Virus record (IMG/VR): IMGVR_UViG_2925597055_000005
Coordinates: 46,712 to 66,711 of that record
DNA: 20,000 nucleotides
Direction: 5' to 3' (one strand)
From: an uncultured virus (IMG/VR IMGVR_UViG_2925597055_000005)
Lineage: Duplodnaviria > Heunggongvirae > Uroviricota > Caudoviricetes
Made by a program: the position numbers and the translations under genes. Of this stretch, positions 6,930-18,902 are shown piece by piece; the stretch's first letter is position 1; every line of letters begins with the position of its first letter. The notes beneath the pieces are model-generated. The model did not search any database, was not told the DNA's origin, and worked only from the letters and a program-made list of their open reading frames with translations.

Positions 6930-7488
6930 ACGCCGCCACGCCTTTCTCAATCGATTCAATTTCGGATTTAATCGCGTTAACTTTCTCGTTAATTGACGCG
7001 TATTCAGAACGAGCAACGGCGATCTTTGCGTCAATTACTGCGATAATCTTATGTGCGCGAGCTTTTGCGCGATTTAATTCGAGCTGCGCAATTTCGAGGT
7101 TCTTTTCCGCAAGCTGAATCGTTAAGCTTCGTAATTCGCGTTTATGGCGGACGATGATGGCGCCGGATTTACGTTTGATTACCGTCTTCAGTTCGTCTGG
7201 AAGACCGTTAATTGGATTCGGATTTCCTGATGTCGTAGCGTCGATTGGCGCTAATCCTTCGTGCATTTTATATACGGTTACGACTTTATTATCGATTACT
7301 ACGAGTCTGACACGTGACTTTATATGGTCGAAGATTCGTGACGTCTTCCCATTGTGATCATTCGCATCTCCGATATAATGAGCCGTTTGCATAAGGTTAT
7401 TAATACATCCGACAGCAGATCCGCGGTCGTAGCCAAGTCGTTCAACTGCGCGATCAACAGCATGCTTGGTTACTCCGTACTTTTTCAT
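6922..7488 (-). CDS. putative RelE/DUF4258-like RNase domain plus coiled coil
   Basis: N-terminal YGVTKHAVDRAVERLG ... VRLVVIDNKVVTVY resembles the HA..R..ER / VVTVY pattern; C-terminal heptad-rich helix. Confidence 0.55.
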   Translation of the reverse strand: MKKYGVTKHAVDRAVERLGYDRGSAVGCINNLMQTAHYIGDANDHNGKTSRIFDHIKSRVRLVVIDNKVVTVYKMHEGLAPIDATTSGNPNPINGLPDELKTVIKRKSGAIIVRHKRELRSLTIQLAEKNLEIAQLELNRAKARAHKIIAVIDAKIAVARSEYASINEKVNAIKSEIESIEKGVAAYV

Positions 7489-7646
7489 CCGACGCGCACC
7501 GCCTTAATCGGAGTAGCCGGGAAATAGTCGGCCGGATCTTCATCGTGCGGCCATGCGCCTTGGTAAATGAAATCGGTGAGTTTGCGCTCGTCTAGCGCTA
7601 AAAGCGTTTGAGATTCGTTAAATGTGGGTAAAATCGATGTATGCAT
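7485..7646 (-). CDS. small hypothetical protein (53 aa)
   Basis: MHTSILPTFNESQTLLALDERKLTDFIYQGAWPHDEDPADYFPATPIKAVRVG. GGAGG RBS at 7657-7661; ATGA coupling to the next gene. Confidence 0.65.
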   Translation of the reverse strand: MHTSILPTFNESQTLLALDERKLTDFIYQGAWPHDEDPADYFPATPIKAVRVG

Positions 7647-7679: not shown

Positions 7680-7778
7680 GCACTAGGCCGAGGACTTGTT
7701 CGCATAATTGTTCGCTTGAATTCGTTGACAATATGCAATACAATGAGGACGTAGCGAAAGTCCTTCGGGCCTAGCTGC
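7680..7778. repeat. long imperfect inverted repeat with a ~50-nt loop
   Basis: GCACTAGGCCGAGGACTTGTTCGC (7680-7703) is complementary, with bulges, to GCGAAAGTCCTTCGGGCCTAGCTGC (7754-7778). Confidence 0.75.
7716..7744 (+). promoter_or_regulatory. putative sigA promoter, antisense to the sigma-factor gene
   Basis: TTGAAT-N17-TACAAT. Confidence 0.5.
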
Positions 7779-7782
7779 GTGG

Positions 7783-8391
7783 TTATTGCGCGATCAAGTA
7801 GTCACGGTAATCACCGAACTGTTTGGTATCGAAATTGCGTGAGAGCTTTTCGAGTTTGCGTATGACTGTTGAGTGATGTAGACCCAACTTTTTTCCGATT
7901 GCCGTCGGAGTTGGCTTTTCACTCGAAAGATATGCTTCGGCGATTTGTATTGTCGTTGCGTCAGATGTAGTACCTAATAGGAAGTCGATCAGTTGCCGCT
8001 GGTCAACTTCTTTTTTTGTTGTCAAAAGTTCTTCCGGGGTTATCGTACAAGGGACCTCGAATGTTGCCGCATTCTTATGGTCTCCTTTTGGTATGATTTC
8101 TCTTTTGTTTCTGTTTACCCTCCCCCTTAAAAAATAGCGTCTCTGTAACGGAACACTTGCATTAAATAATCTTTCAAAATCATGCTCTCCGTTGTACGAC
8201 TCAATGCAAGAAAGTAAGGTATCTTCATAAATCGCTCTTGCCTCATAATAATCTGCACCAATTGATTTACCGATTGTTTTGAACTTTCGGTCATTTCTTG
8301 TTATGAAGTAATCGTAAACCATCCTAAAAGCAGATTCACTTCTACTTTCTTTGTACTTTAATACTTCGCTATTCAATTGTTCTTTTCTCAA
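7783..8391 (-). CDS. phage sigma-70-like transcription factor (region 2 plus region 4 HTH)
   Basis: ESAFRMVYDY...EARAIYEDTLLSCIESYN..DF..LF is region 2-like; TPTAIGKKLGLHHSTVIRKLEKL is an HTH. TTG start with AAGGGAGG RBS. Confidence 0.75.
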   Translation of the reverse strand: MRKEQLNSEVLKYKESRSESAFRMVYDYFITRNDRKFKTIGKSIGADYYEARAIYEDTLLSCIESYNGEHDFERLFNASVPLQRRYFLRGRVNRNKREIIPKGDHKNAATFEVPCTITPEELLTTKKEVDQRQLIDFLLGTTSDATTIQIAEAYLSSEKPTPTAIGKKLGLHHSTVIRKLEKLSRNFDTKQFGDYRDYLIAQ

Positions 8392-8411: not shown

Positions 8412-8450
8412 TTACATACGACTATATGCACCTACTTACACAACCGCGCA
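8412..8450 (-). promoter_or_regulatory. conserved motif copy 1, TGCGCGGT-N11-GTGCATAT-NN-TCG-NN-TGTAA
   Basis: 25/39 identity and identical spacing with 18864-18902; immediately upstream of the sigma gene RBS. Confidence 0.65.
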
Positions 8451-8588
8451 TTTTTTGTTTGTTTTTTCTCTATGTGTAAATAATACCAAGTATTTTCTGC
8501 AATTATCTGAAAACGACACCCTATTTATATAAAAATAAGTAGCGCGGATACGGCCTAAGTATCGTGTTCCGTAGAAGCTTAGAAAATT

Positions 8589-8619
8589 AAAAAACCCCAC
8601 AACATTACGTTGTGGGGTT
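8589..8619 (-). terminator. intrinsic terminator after aimP
   Basis: Perfect 11-bp stem AACCCCACAAC/GTTGTGGGGTT with a 5-nt loop and a U-tract on the minus strand. Confidence 0.85.
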
Positions 8620-8628
8620 AATAAAGAA

Positions 8629-8760
8629 CTAAGCGCCAACCCGAATGTCGGCTACCTTATATCCTCCTTCGGTGCTAGCTTGATTCTGTGTATCATATTT
8701 AAATGCAAATCCTGCTGCCGCCATCACTACGATTAAAGTGGCTAATAATATCTTTTTCAA
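8629..8760 (-). CDS. aimP: arbitrium pro-peptide AimP; predicted mature peptide DIRVGA
   Basis: TTG start with AAAGGAGAGG RBS; MKKILLATLIVVMAAAGFAFKYDTQNQASTEGGYKVA-DIRVGA. Signal peptide, then linker, VA and a C-terminal hexapeptide ending in GA, the same layout as phi3T AimP (..VA-SAIRGA). Confidence 0.9.
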   Translation of the reverse strand: MKKILLATLIVVMAAAGFAFKYDTQNQASTEGGYKVADIRVGA

Positions 8761-9925
8761 TTAAAACCTCTCCTTTAATTAATTTTTTGAATTTTAGGAA
8801 TGGTCTAAGCGCTCGTGAGTCAGCTCCTGCTTTCTCAAGCTCTTTCGCTACTAACCTAGCAAAAAAGAAGTTTTCTTGACAGAAAAAAGACTCTAGGCAA
8901 TTATACATTACATCTATTGACTTTTCCGCTGTGTTTTCGAAAAATATTATAAAATTGTCTTTATCGCCCCTCTCTAATATCGTATGTAACTTCGCTAAAG
9001 AAATTTTCCCATTTCTCGCTTTCTGATATGCTCTCAGTCTGAAGTTAGAGTCTTCATCAAGCTCGACACCATGAAAGACTTTAGCGAAATCTAAATTAAA
9101 CTTTGCCTCTTGGATATACTGCAAATCGCCCACTTCACGCATTAACTCGTAACTTTTCCGGAGATTATACAAACAGACATTTTTATCATCCGGTAAGTAC
9201 GACATCCCTATAACATAATATGCATCAGATTTCTTTTTCGCGGATATATTTGCATTAATAATGGATTCAGCAAAATCCCGAGCAGATTTTACATCATTAA
9301 GTTGCAAACTAATAGGCGCCAATAATTCACAGACCCTGAACGTTAAGCATTCTTTATAAAAGGTTTCTCGCGGCCCTAGGTTTGTTATATCCTTCTGGAT
9401 TTCCGAGACTTCATTTATTATTTTTTGTATGTCACCTTCAAAATAGTTGTTATACTGTCGAATGATATTCATTAAGATCAAAAGTGGTTTACTTGTTATA
9501 TTGTGGAGTCTTCCAATTGCATCCTTCAGTTCAAAACCACTCAACGTTCCTACCATATAGTTATAAACAATACGGTACACTTCCACCGTCTGTTTAAGCA
9601 CTCCGTCAGTATTTTGATGAAGTAGTAATAATCTTTTTAAAAGGGGAGCGTTTGTAGTAATTGCGGAGTATTCAAATGAGTTTTTTATTGTTTCTGTCCG
9701 GGTGATGTGCAAACACCATTCTGACAAAATTTCCTGGCTTCCCTTTCCTGTTTCTCTTGAAATCAGTTGAGCAAATTTAATAAGTTTCTTGAAACTTATT
9801 TTACCTTTCTTGAAAAAATCCCTATATGCACTTTCACTCATTCCAACAAACTCCATAACATCCGTCTTTTTTATGGCATCGTGGTCTTCAATAAAATCAT
9901 GCACCATTTTTGTGATGTATTCCAA
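8699..9925 (-). CDS. aimR: arbitrium receptor AimR (N-terminal HTH plus TPR-like)
   Basis: 408 aa, helical. AimR-like segments (WCLHITRTETIKNSFEYS, YYVIGMSYL, NLDFAKVF, FFARLVAKELEKAG) and position directly upstream of an AimP-like peptide gene. GGGAGG RBS, TTG start. Confidence 0.87.
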   Translation of the reverse strand: MEYITKMVHDFIEDHDAIKKTDVMEFVGMSESAYRDFFKKGKISFKKLIKFAQLISRETGKGSQEILSEWCLHITRTETIKNSFEYSAITTNAPLLKRLLLLHQNTDGVLKQTVEVYRIVYNYMVGTLSGFELKDAIGRLHNITSKPLLILMNIIRQYNNYFEGDIQKIINEVSEIQKDITNLGPRETFYKECLTFRVCELLAPISLQLNDVKSARDFAESIINANISAKKKSDAYYVIGMSYLPDDKNVCLYNLRKSYELMREVGDLQYIQEAKFNLDFAKVFHGVELDEDSNFRLRAYQKARNGKISLAKLHTILERGDKDNFIIFFENTAEKSIDVMYNCLESFFCQENFFFARLVAKELEKAGADSRALRPFLKFKKLIKGEVLIEKDIISHFNRSDGGSRICI

Positions 9926-9983
9926 GTGAGCCTACCTCCCTGATTATCTATTTAAATTCGATCAGCAACTTTTAACTAACTCA

Positions 9984-10013
9984 ATTATAATTATTGCATT
10001 ATCGATATGTCAA
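9984..10013 (-). promoter_or_regulatory. sigA promoter for aimR
   Basis: Perfect TTGACA (10013-10008)-N18-TATAAT (9989-9984) on the minus strand. Confidence 0.75.
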
Positions 10014-10074
10014 TAATAATTTTCGGTAGTTTTTGTTAAAGTGATAATATAAAATATACTGGACACCTTTACGA

Positions 10075-10320
10075 ATGGAGGTGTTTATTACGTTTAAGGT
10101 CGGCAAATGTCGGATACCCGAACTATGCAAGAAACGTGGAATTAGTCTCAGTCAACTCGCAGCAATGGTCGGAGTATCAAAAACGCACATGTCCGATTAC
10201 GTCAGCCTTCGGAATCTGCCGAGCATCGAACGAACCTACAATATCGCGATGATGCTCGGCTGTGCGCCCGAAGAGCTGTACGAATGGATTGAGGTATCCG
10301 ACAGCAACACGGAGGGTTAA
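10075..10320 (+). CDS. XRE-family HTH transcriptional regulator (Cro/CI-like)
   Basis: IPELCKKRGISLSQLAAMVGVSKTHMSDY...PSIERTYNIAMMLGCAPEELY. The only credible plus-strand gene, divergent from aimR. From memory it resembles SPbeta YopS-type regulators. Start codon uncertain. Confidence 0.85.
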   Translation: MEVFITFKVGKCRIPELCKKRGISLSQLAAMVGVSKTHMSDYVSLRNLPSIERTYNIAMMLGCAPEELYEWIEVSDSNTEG

Positions 10321-17430: not shown

Positions 17431-17850
17431 CTACGTAAGCTCCTCCGTATCTCCATCGAATATTGCGAGCTGACTGATCGGCATGATCGTATATCTCGCG
17501 TTATCCCATCGCTGTGTCTTCGGGTCCCGCGCCTTCTGCTTAACGACTAACGGCCGCCCCTGCCATCGATACTCGCACAGCGCTTTGATTCGCCTGTTCG
17601 CCGCAGCTCGGCTGAGATTTAGCGCGCCGGCTATCTGATCCTGCGTCGGGTAACATTCGCCATTAGCGTTCATAAACGAAGACAGTACGCAAAGAGTCTG
17701 CCAACGCTCCGCCCCGATGTCCGCGATAAGACCTTTCTTGACGGCGTCGACGTACATCTTAACGAAGATCCGCGTTTCGGCCTTGCCGGACGTTATGTTG
17801 TATTCCGATTGAGATTCGACGGATACGAGCCGCTGGTGTTCGTCGGTCAT
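17431..17850 (-). CDS. phage replication initiator, N-terminal winged-HTH (HTH_36-like)
   Basis: LCVLSSFMNANGECYPTQDQIAGALNLSRAAANRRIKAL...NARYTI pattern. Confidence 0.8.
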   Translation of the reverse strand: MTDEHQRLVSVESQSEYNITSGKAETRIFVKMYVDAVKKGLIADIGAERWQTLCVLSSFMNANGECYPTQDQIAGALNLSRAAANRRIKALCEYRWQGRPLVVKQKARDPKTQRWDNARYTIMPISQLAIFDGDTEELT

Positions 17851-18806
17851 GCCACATCGACTCCTCTCTTCATTTTTATTTCCTCGGATTTTAGTTCCGA
17901 TAGAAATGAGTTTACTCGGAAAGCCAACTCAGTGTTTCCGCTTTTCAAAAGCGATGGAACAAACTCGCTAATATGCGTGAGGGTAACGTTAGGGTGTTCG
18001 AAACTACCTTCGGACTCTTTAGCAAAAATAATCGTAAGATGGTCCGTATGCCGAAGATACTTATCGAACGTTTTGCAAGCACGATTAAATGCAGTATTCT
18101 CACTTAGCTTAGCGTCGACCCACTCAGTTCCGTTAATAACGAAATCCGGGATGCAGTCATCGATTCGTTTTTGTTTCTCGACCGATCCGGGATGCAACGC
18201 ATTAAGAACTTCACCAACAAGCAACTCAAATTCGCGCCCCTTCGTTATATAGAAAGCTGCATAGGATTCGTTAACCAGTTCGTAGGGCAATCCCCATTCT
18301 CTGCACATTTTCTTTGCGCTATGATCGTAAAATTTACGCAAATAAGTTTCGACGTGCCAAAGCTTATTTGCGTAAATATACTCGCGTTTCAAACCATACG
18401 GAAACTTATCTCTAACGTAAGCATCCAGCGCTTCTTTTTCGATATCTTCAAGGACTTCTTTTCTGTATTCGCGAAACTTTGTATCCGAAATGTTGTACAA
18501 CTCTTTTACTTCTCCGGAGATAAATTTGTTCTCGGAGACTTTATAATTGCCGTCGATGAAGAAACATCTTTCAATTTCCAAACGAGAAGGTTCTGCGACT
18601 TGCTCGTAAAGCCCGTATGCAATTAGAGATTCTTTTACGCTGCCAAAAGCCCTCTCTAACCGCTTCCTAACAGTGCCGTAATTGTACTTAGTTGAGTTTA
18701 TTAACTCCTTTCCTAGATTAGTTACATCTATGCCATCATCTATTAAATTGTCTAGTAAAAGTAATGCGTTTTCTTGCTTTTGTGTAATATCCACCTTATT
18801 GTTCAC
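17847..18806 (-). CDS. AT-rich protein with a C-terminal PD-(D/E)XK nuclease domain
   Basis: KGREFELLV...CIPDFVI...WVDAKLS motif. The likely start is GTG 18794 behind GAGAGG. Confidence 0.7.
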   Translation of the reverse strand: MNNKVDITQKQENALLLLDNLIDDGIDVTNLGKELINSTKYNYGTVRKRLERAFGSVKESLIAYGLYEQVAEPSRLEIERCFFIDGNYKVSENKFISGEVKELYNISDTKFREYRKEVLEDIEKEALDAYVRDKFPYGLKREYIYANKLWHVETYLRKFYDHSAKKMCREWGLPYELVNESYAAFYITKGREFELLVGEVLNALHPGSVEKQKRIDDCIPDFVINGTEWVDAKLSENTAFNRACKTFDKYLRHTDHLTIIFAKESEGSFEHPNVTLTHISEFVPSLLKSGNTELAFRVNSFLSELKSEEIKMKRGVDVA

Positions 18807-18863
18807 CTCTCATTTGTAACTGCATATACAATCTCCAGAACGGACACTTTCTGCTAAATTTTT

Positions 18864-18902
18864 TTACAACCGATAATATGCACGCCAAATTAATACCGCG
18901 CA
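18864..18902 (-). promoter_or_regulatory. conserved motif copy 2, TGCGCGGT-N11-GTGCATAT-NN-TCG-NN-TGTAA
   Basis: Matches 8412-8450; lies right after the integrase terminator, at the head of the replication operon. Confidence 0.65.

What the first reader, a model, noticed from the sequence alone, without database searches (positions are those of the whole stretch)
8629..9925. Arbitrium peptide-communication system with an unannotated aimP encoding DIRVGA
Seen: a 43-codon ORF missed by the track, with a strong RBS, signal peptide and the ending KVA-DIRVGA, directly after a 408-aa helical regulator and followed by a terminator. Known: this is the AimR/AimP layout of phi3T (SAIRGA) and SPbeta (GMPRGA). 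Inference: the mature peptide is DIRVGA, with Asp1/Arg3/Val4 instead of the xxxRGA pattern, so it is probably orthogonal to the phi3T/SPbeta signals. The phage itself (PolA/primase/helicase module) does not look SPbeta-like. I cannot tell whether this peptide is already catalogued.
Basis: partly seen in the sequence, partly recalled or inferred. Interest (0 to 1): 0.85.

Follow-up and report, generated by a model that had tools for sequence, protein, structure and literature searches.

The report
Phage peptide switch feeding sigma factor
This dormant Bacillus virus carries a genuine peptide-signalling "arbitrium" unit whose signal most likely ends in DIRVGA, and it appears to switch on the virus's own sigma factor rather than the usual small output gene, which would be a further way of turning virus-to-virus signals into the kill-or-hide decision.

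Summary
The aimR-aimP pair is real: AimR passes Pfam and NCBIfam cut-offs, and the 43-codon aimP ends KVA-DIRVGA before a terminator. The phi3T/SPbeta comparison is misplaced. The receptor groups with Wbeta-type AimRs (35% identity, against 16% to SPbeta), and DIRVGA fits that group's peptides (EIKPGG, DIRPGG, DIRIGA). It is a new allele, not a new peptide class; the protein is already in NCBI, and the main 2019 catalogue could not be checked.

The wiring is more interesting. No aimX-aimC-aimL follows; a sigma-70-fold gene occupies the aimX slot in all 41 aimR-bearing loci of 60 primase-anchored relatives, and 10 others carry ImmA/ImmR instead. A receptor-specific dyad sits at a fixed distance from an extended -10. 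An allele-specific bipartite motif (here TGCGCG-N15-GCATAT) precedes the sigma gene and two other operons, with a near copy inside aimR, upstream of aimP. Inferred circuit: peptide-free AimR turns on the sigma, which drives replication genes, itself and aimP. None of this is tested experimentally.

The scan reported arbitrium-to-sigma wiring on at least seven other genomes; I found it in no paper. The intragenic copy did not come up in my search of earlier notes.

The parts
8699..9925 (-). aimR, 408-aa arbitrium receptor of the Wbeta-containing clade; its last 62 nt overlap aimP
   Evidence: PF22871 92.6 bits; NF038310 216.8 bits; tree
9984..10013 (-). consensus sigma-A promoter of aimR (TTGACA-18-TATAAT, 12 of 12)
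   Evidence: both hexamers invariant in 7 of 7 aligned loci
8629..8760 (-). aimP, 43-aa pre-peptide; predicted mature signal DIRVGA encoded at 8632-8649; RBS at 8767-8776
   Evidence: identical protein on 14 contigs in NCBI and others
8593..8619 (-). intrinsic terminator-like hairpin directly after aimP
   Evidence: a hairpin follows aimP in the 22 spacers folded
8549..8573 (.). small dyad TACGG-N15-CCGTA in a 27-nt segment absent from the DIRIGA relative; role unknown
   Evidence: three relatives read TACGA...TCGTA (change on both arms), two read TGCGA...TCGTA
8514..8547 (.). candidate AimR operator: degenerate dyad with AT-rich spacer, centred 42 nt upstream of the extended -10
   Evidence: family-level dyad at this offset, 0 of 1000 shuffles; the window's own copy is the weakest of 14 (3 of 6 arm positions)
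8480..8488 (-). extended -10 (TGGTATTAT) without a good -35, 97 nt before the sigma start
   Evidence: invariant in 7 of 7 aligned loci
8424..8450 (-). candidate phage-sigma promoter TGCGCG-N15-GCATAT before the sigma gene
   Evidence: 3 exact copies in the 66.7-kb genome, 0.017 expected
7783..8391 (-). 202-aa sigma-70-fold protein in the aimX position
   Evidence: Foldseek rows all sigma-containing entries, best SigH model E 3.3e-4; Sigma70_r2 in 4 of 23 relatives; NCBI names in its cluster
9218..9244 (-). one-mismatch copy of the sigma motif inside aimR (codons 228-236, SAKKKSDAY), about 485 nt upstream of aimP; candidate aimP promoter
18876..18902 (-). exact sigma motif after the integrase, heading the helicase-loader/helicase/primase gene run
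10075..10320 (+). 81-aa XRE/Cro-type HTH gene divergent from aimR; repressor candidate
   Evidence: PF13443, PF01381; homologue found in all 41 aimR-bearing loci
7485..7646 (-). 53-aa ORF after the sigma gene, preceded by degenerate LexA-like sites; function unknown
   Evidence: phrog_30530; conserved in relatives; best LexA-like match has 2 mismatches

Best explanation
A genuine arbitrium system on a 67-kb temperate phage of the B. velezensis/amyloliquefaciens group, with a Wbeta-clade receptor (probably clade 3a, by elimination). AimP is exported and cut after Ala37 to give DIRVGA, which returns through Opp and inactivates AimR (from established family biology). Its output is not AimX but the phage's own alternative sigma factor. 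Peptide-free AimR binds the dyad downstream of the aimP terminator and turns on the sigma gene, most likely by activating the -35-less sigma-A promoter at fixed distance. The sigma then reads TGCGCG-N15-GCATAT promoters: before its own gene and the DNA-polymerase run, before the helicase/primase run, after nrdF, and inside aimR, from where it makes aimP. Signal production is thus tied to lytic commitment, and accumulated peptide shuts the loop and favours lysogeny. Shown: gene identities, order, conservation, motif statistics. Inferred: processing, binding, promoter use, direction of control.
For: AimR and AimP family hits. No aimC/aimL downstream and no conserved small ORF between terminator and sigma gene. 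Of 60 primase-anchored loci, 41 carry aimR and all 41 have the sigma-like gene next; 10 carry ImmA/ImmR-like genes divergent from it instead; 1 has sigma without either; 8 gave neither (3 truncated, 5 distant). The dyad is centred 42 nt upstream of the extended -10 in 14 loci, 0 of 1000 shuffles also with one locus per receptor group (7 loci), and its arms change with the receptor. Wbeta has the same terminator-dyad-(-10) cassette before its small ORF. Distance to the -10 is fixed while distance to the terminator ranges 27-64 nt (12 of 14 loci measured). Sigma fold. Motif: 3 exact copies vs 0.017 expected; 2-3 copies in 5 of 5 genomes with this sigma allele, 0 in 5 of 5 with others. Other alleles carry their own motif at the same places. 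Pre-sigma motif recurs inside the own aimR at 12 or more of 14 positions in 12 of 19 loci, against 18 of 342 cross-locus pairs and at most 10 on the reverse strand.
Against: No expression, binding or genetic data; the RNA runs laid gave no test. The window's own dyad is the weakest (3 of 6) and lies 64 nt from the terminator, against 27-44 elsewhere. In phi3T and SPbeta the AimR site also lies downstream of the terminator and AimR acts by antitermination, with no promoter found there in phi3T (PMC10769878). The -10 anchors and the scored motif positions were chosen after inspection; three anchors (L021, L049, L003) were set by eye. The window's sigma protein has no Pfam sigma hit of its own, and the model's pTM is 0.46 with TM-scores of 0.25-0.38. 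The intragenic motif lies on a conserved AimR helix; Wbeta, which has no sigma gene beside it, also reads GCATAT there, so protein constraint explains part of it (synonymous-resampling P 0.013 for the window). 7 of 19 loci score 11 or less, including all 4 with the short sigma type.
Confidence: 0.62

Rival explanations
1. Same output, other mechanism: AimR antiterminates the aimP transcript, as in phi3T and SPbeta, so that aimP and the sigma gene form one transcript; the extended -10 is idle or AimR-independent.
For: Order terminator then dyad matches phi3T and SPbeta. A candidate promoter inside aimR would supply the upstream transcript.
Against: In phi3T an 8-bp shortening of the terminator-site distance abolished the effect, whereas here that distance ranges 27-64 nt while the distance to the -10 is fixed. 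The -10 is conserved across the family.
Confidence: 0.2
2. AimR controls a non-coding aimX RNA or an undetected small protein in the 237-nt spacer; the sigma gene is only a neighbour under its own and XRE control.
For: SPbeta aimX acts as RNA and AimX ORFs are small and divergent. The 27-nt segment holds a dyad with a two-sided change. The sigma gene persists without arbitrium in 11 loci.
Against: No conserved ORF in the spacer. No terminator was called between the -10 and the sigma start. In Wbeta the same cassette reads into a small ORF 40 nt on.
Confidence: 0.1
3. The system is real but the active peptide is longer than DIRVGA, or the signalling is degenerate in this lineage.
For: Other clades use up to 10 residues. 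The window's dyad is degenerate, the second XRE gene of most relatives is missing, and one relative has a 381-aa aimR.
Against: Ala at -7 in 11 of 12 alleles. aimR and aimP are intact with DIRVGA unchanged in the window and 4 of 5 close relatives, and the receptor's 90% cluster has 18 members.
Confidence: 0.08

Closest known systems
Wbeta-type extended arbitrium (aimR-aimP-aimX-aimC-aimL; signal EIKPGG; Kabel et al. 10.1101/2025.11.23.689978)
   Same: Receptor clade (35% identity), aimR/aimP overlap, acidic-Ile-basic-x-Gly peptide, terminator-dyad-(-10) cassette after aimP.
   Different: No AimX antirepressor, aimC or aimL downstream; a 202-aa sigma-fold gene takes that place; the locus sits between primase and DNA polymerase, not beside the integrase.
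SPbeta/phi3T arbitrium (clade 2; GMPRGA, SAIRGA; AimR as antiterminator, PMC10769878)
   Same: aimR-aimP-terminator-operator order; hexapeptide after Ala.
   Different: 15.8% identity. Of the SPbeta-type peptide contacts listed in PMC13220667 Table S4, few align as identical (Y159 kept, R228 to Lys, N202/N206/N329/D360/E300 changed, alignment uncertain at this distance). No sro operon; 67-kb phage.
phi106/phiW23 clade 1 arbitrium (DPPVGM, EIIVGA)
   Same: B. subtilis-group hosts; EIIVGA resembles DIRVGA.
   Different: Receptor about 20% identical and outside the clade; those loci have aimX-aimC-aimL and a LexA box before aimX; no GAAC-N4-GTTC site in this spacer.
Phages 268TH002 (ON210835) and vB_BauS_KLEB27-1 (OM654379)
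   Same: Same gene order primase, XRE, aimR, aimP, sigma; both genes annotated in GenBank as AimR/regulator and sigma factor.
   Different: Other alleles (INAIGG, DIRPGG; receptors 25-29% identical); two XRE genes. The part of the genome announcement I read (PMC9476937, part 1 of 2, whole main text) does not mention arbitrium.

Membership tests
Arbitrium (AimR-AimP) | AimR-family receptor with N-terminal HTH and TPR body | tested here: met
   PF22871 and NF038310 above cut-off; matches to solved AimRs at E 1.8e-5 to 8e-4
Arbitrium (AimR-AimP) | Adjacent short pre-peptide with signal sequence and C-terminal mature peptide | tested here: met
   43 aa, basic N-terminus, hydrophobic core; NF033802 E 6.6e-5 but under its cut-off; variable hexapeptide at the same place in 41 loci
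Arbitrium (AimR-AimP) | Terminator after aimP followed by an AimR operator | tested here: inconclusive
   Terminator present; dyad significant for the family but only 3 of 6 in this locus
Arbitrium (AimR-AimP) | Secreted peptide binds AimR and shifts the phage to lysogeny | not testable with these tools
   Needs bench assays; no structure prediction of the pair was obtained
Arbitrium (AimR-AimP) | Located on a temperate phage or mobile element | tested here: met
   Tyrosine integrase in the window; virion genes in the genome; relatives classed as proviruses
SPbeta-type clade 2 arbitrium | Clade 2 receptor, xxxRGA-type peptide, sro operon downstream | tested here: not met
   15.8% identity, outside the clade; DIRVGA absent from the clade 2 table; sigma gene downstream
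Extended arbitrium (aimX-aimC-aimL) | Small aimX ORF, opposite-strand HTH aimC and aimL downstream of aimP | tested here: not met
   None downstream; the only nearby HTH gene is upstream of aimR
AimR clade 3 (3a) of Stokar-Avihail/Kabel | Grouping with reference clade 3 sequences | tested here: inconclusive
   Reference table not seen. By elimination: B. subtilis carries clades 1, 2, 3; this receptor is outside 1 and 2; clade 3a is subtilis-dominated and mostly lacks the extended layout
Sigma-70 alternative sigma factors | Region 2 helical domain and region 4 HTH joined by a linker | tested here: met
   Two-domain helical model; Foldseek list filled by sigma factors, one at E below 0.001; Sigma70_r2 in 4 of 23 relatives
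Sigma-70 alternative sigma factors | Binds core RNA polymerase and initiates at its own promoters | not testable with these tools
   Only indirect: allele-specific bipartite motifs

The most novel reading that the evidence does not exclude
A phage family of B. subtilis-group and related hosts runs lysis-lysogeny through a swappable aimR-aimP-sigma cassette. AimR acts as a classical activator of a phage sigma factor, and that sigma's promoter is written into the receptor's own coding sequence, here on the helix that aligns with the peptide-binding helix of SPbeta AimR. Peptide, receptor, operator, sigma and promoter would then have to change together, and signal production would report lytic commitment directly.
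Probability: 0.4. Interest if true: 0.82.

Novelty: new variant of a known kind. Interest (0 to 1): 0.6.

Why it matters
The DIRVGA allele alone adds one more peptide to a family with over a hundred. The wiring matters more. Kabel et al. list three known modes of aimX action and leave the systems without the extended or SPbeta layout, including clade 3a, unexplained. A sigma factor as direct output would fill that gap, would give AimR an activator role where phi3T and SPbeta show antitermination, and would explain when aimP is made. It is testable now: phage 268TH002 is a cultured member on B. subtilis, and the operators and promoters are predicted to the base. The set of related alleles in overlapping hosts also gives a ready panel for cross-talk tests.

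Tried and rejected
DIRVGA in print: 0 papers in full-text search; 0 in the one supplement file of PMC10075063; 0 in the four files of PMC13220667, which cover clade 2 only. Stokar-Avihail 2019 was not retrieved, and the bioRxiv supplements (Kabel's table of 9,300 AimRs, Manley's Table S10) are closed, so 'uncatalogued' is not shown and is unlikely.

Clade-1 origin, suggested by EIIVGA: rejected by the tree. The DIRVGA DNA pattern in viral contigs gave 8 hits: 5 were the known relatives, 3 were chance matches in unrelated genes. The 67-aa ORF at 8436-8639 as AimX: rejected, its length is not conserved (28-39 aa in relatives). LexA control of the spacer: no box. My first dyad shuffle used offset 43 and gave 17 of 5000; it was redone over all offsets. 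The intragenic motif was not found for the 4 short-sigma loci even with other -10 offsets. GTDB genome scan: no relative. RNA runs: none holds half of the locus; two raw-read runs laid 0 reads and two contig sets covered fragments only, so no test. No complex prediction of AimR with AimP was obtained, so binding rests on family knowledge alone. PMC12472986 had no clade information; 10.1101/2023.04.27.537455 had no passage on antitermination.

Full report
Observation. The 408-aa ORF (8699-9925, minus strand) and the 43-aa ORF ending KVADIRVGA (8629-8760) are present. The small ORF has a strong RBS and a hydrophobic N-terminal core and is followed by a terminator-like hairpin at 8619-8593; a perfect sigma-A promoter lies upstream of the large gene. 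The large protein passes the AimR cut-offs of Pfam and NCBIfam. The small one hits the AimP model below cut-off. The two genes overlap by 62 nt. The identical AimP is already in NCBI/nr on 14 contigs.

Context. The window is the end of a 66,711-base phage record with virion, lysis, integrase, PolA, primase, helicase and ribonucleotide-reductase-like genes. Gene order matches the temperate phages 268TH002 and KLEB27-1. Named members of the sigma protein's cluster come from B. velezensis and B. amyloliquefaciens.

Receptor and peptide. In tblastn against phage genomes the best of 43 records are Wbeta relatives at up to 38%. In a tree of 64 AimR sequences (25 from loci, 39 of the 43 proteins P0003-P0045, those over 330 aa), the receptor lies in a clade of support 1.0 with Wbeta and the family's overlap-type receptors; SPbeta (15.8%) and three clade-1 EIIVGA receptors (about 20%) lie outside. 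Clade 3a is my inference by elimination; I did not see the reference table. Peptides of this receptor group in the same phage slot are DIRVGA, DIRIGA, DIRPGG, ELRPGG, EIKVGG, GIKVGG, INAIGG, INIIGG, ANQLGG, DPVPGG, DPIPGG and PEKVGG; 11 of these 12 follow Ala. Wbeta's EIKPGG is reported active and needs its first residue (PMC8878798, passages). DIRVGA is therefore a typical allele of this group. It appears in no paper of the library and in neither supplement set searched, but the two main catalogues were not visible.

The output slot. Kabel et al. (parts 1-4 of 7 and passages read) report that about 75% of systems have aimX-aimC-aimL, about 4% are SPbeta-like, and clades 2 and 3a are the exceptions; the word sigma does not occur in their main text. 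Here the next gene is a 202-aa protein with a two-domain helical model (mean pLDDT 77, pTM 0.46) whose Foldseek list is filled by sigma-70 factors, best a SigH model at E 3.3e-4. Four of 23 relatives hit Sigma70_r2, the window's protein itself does not. I took the first 60 of 72 primase-anchored loci (L016-L075; the other 12 were distant matches at E 1e-9 or weaker and were left out). 41 carry aimR, and all 41 have the sigma-like gene next; 10 have ImmA/ImmR-like genes divergent from it; 1 has neither regulator; 8 gave no hit with either profile. These loci are related and partly redundant, so the counts show conservation, not 41 independent events. The swap between arbitrium and ImmR/ImmA in front of a constant sigma gene suggests that this gene is the switch's target (inference).

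Cis elements. In 22 spacers a hairpin follows aimP closely. An extended -10 lies about 90-125 nt before the sigma start. A dyad is centred 42 nt upstream of it: mean 5.2 of 6 arm matches in 14 loci, 0 of 1000 shuffles taking the best offset each time, and the same with 7 loci, one per receptor group. Arms follow the receptor: GAACA-N20-TGTTC with INAIGG, INIIGG and ANQLGG, AGTT...CAACT with DIRPGG and ELRPGG, AAATTGGGT...ACCCAATTT with GIKVGG. Wbeta has the same cassette before its small ORF. The window's own dyad is the weakest (3 of 6), and a 27-nt extra segment separates it from the terminator. In phi3T and SPbeta the site also follows the terminator and AimR antiterminates (PMC10769878, passages), so that mode stays open. 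The fixed distance to the -10 and the variable distance to the terminator (27-64 nt) favour activation here.

Sigma promoter. TGCGCG-N15-GCATAT, invariant before the sigma gene in 7 aligned loci, occurs exactly 3 times in the genome, all on the minus strand between genes: window 8450, window 18902 after the integrase, and genome 40380 after nrdF; 0.017 expected from 60 Markov simulations. It occurs 2-3 times in 5 of 5 genomes with this sigma type and in 0 of 5 with other types. As an independent test, the different pre-sigma motif of 268TH002 was found at exactly three places in the 45.5 kb fetched (of 65.5 kb): after the integrase, inside aimR and before sigma. Three further allele motifs gave 3 copies in 3 of 3, 2-4 in 3 of 3 and 4-5 in 3 of 3 cognate genomes; of 6 non-cognate controls 5 had none and one had 2 copies near the contig end.

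Copy inside aimR. The window has a one-mismatch copy at 9244, about 485 nt before aimP (1.65 matches with up to one mismatch are expected per genome, so alone it means little). Across 19 loci the pre-sigma motif matches the own aimR at 12 or more of 14 positions in 12, against 18 of 342 cross-locus pairs and a reverse-strand best of 8-10. It lies near codon 228 in one group and near codon 348 in the INAIGG group. Against it: 7 loci score 11 or less, the site is a conserved protein helix, and Wbeta also reads GCATAT there; synonymous resampling gave P 0.013 for the window and 0 to 0.088 for the 12.

Mechanism. Most likely, peptide-free AimR switches on the sigma gene; sigma amplifies itself, starts the replication operons and makes aimP; accumulated DIRVGA inactivates AimR and the phage lysogenises. 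Confidence about 0.95 for a true arbitrium pair, 0.85 for DIRVGA as the signal, 0.8 for the sigma gene as output by either mode, 0.62 for the circuit as stated. The true repressor and the DNA-damage input are unresolved: the upstream XRE gene is a candidate, and no LexA box lies in the spacer.

Novelty. The peptide is a new allele of a known kind. The wiring was not found in searches (listings and abstracts; titles point to SPbeta papers and reviews, which I did not read) or in the papers read. Eight earlier notes of this scan describe a peptide receptor next to a phage sigma gene on other genomes, seven of them as arbitrium; they are unchecked notes, I had this reading before seeing them, and they add no independent evidence. 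A word search for the intragenic promoter returned none, which is weak evidence as only short texts are shown. Other papers seen: Manley (parts 1-2 of 6, passages), Aframian (passages), PMC13220667 (supplement 1 whole, supplement 2 part 1 of 9), PMC9476937 (part 1 of 2), PMC6669507 and PMC11945551 (passages). Verdict: new variant of a known kind, interest 0.6.

Noticed in passing
window 18819-18846 (-): A second motif, TGTCCG-N17-TGCAGTT, lies just downstream of the post-integrase TGCGCG site and resembles the promoter motif of the INAIGG-type sigma alleles. 268TH002 and G012 also carry more than one motif type there. These may be relics of earlier cassette swaps.
   Followed up: partly
window 10075-10100 (+): The XRE gene's called ATG has no RBS before it; GGAGGTG lies just after it and precedes an in-frame ATT, so the true start may be ATT.
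   Followed up: no
window 9926-10074: The DIRVGA and DIRIGA loci lack the second, roughly 70-aa XRE gene that most relatives carry between the first XRE gene and aimR.
   Followed up: partly
window 7690-7715 (-): Two CGAAC-led LexA-like sites with 2 mismatches each precede the 53-aa ORF; several relatives have a one-mismatch site here. A possible DNA-damage input to the polymerase gene run.
   Followed up: partly
L008:3001-4146 and L010, L016: One DIRVGA relative has a 381-aa aimR that ends before aimP; L010 and L016 have split aimR ORFs. May be sequencing errors or decay.
   Followed up: no
L058, L060-L064, L067, L068: Distant members hold receptors from outside this clade with longer Gly-rich peptides (one, L063, with a repeated KDPGTGGL) in the same slot before the sigma gene.
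   Followed up: partly
window 17847-18806 (-): A 319-aa ORF with no Pfam, NCBIfam or PHROG hit heads the helicase gene run, directly under the post-integrase motif.
   Followed up: no
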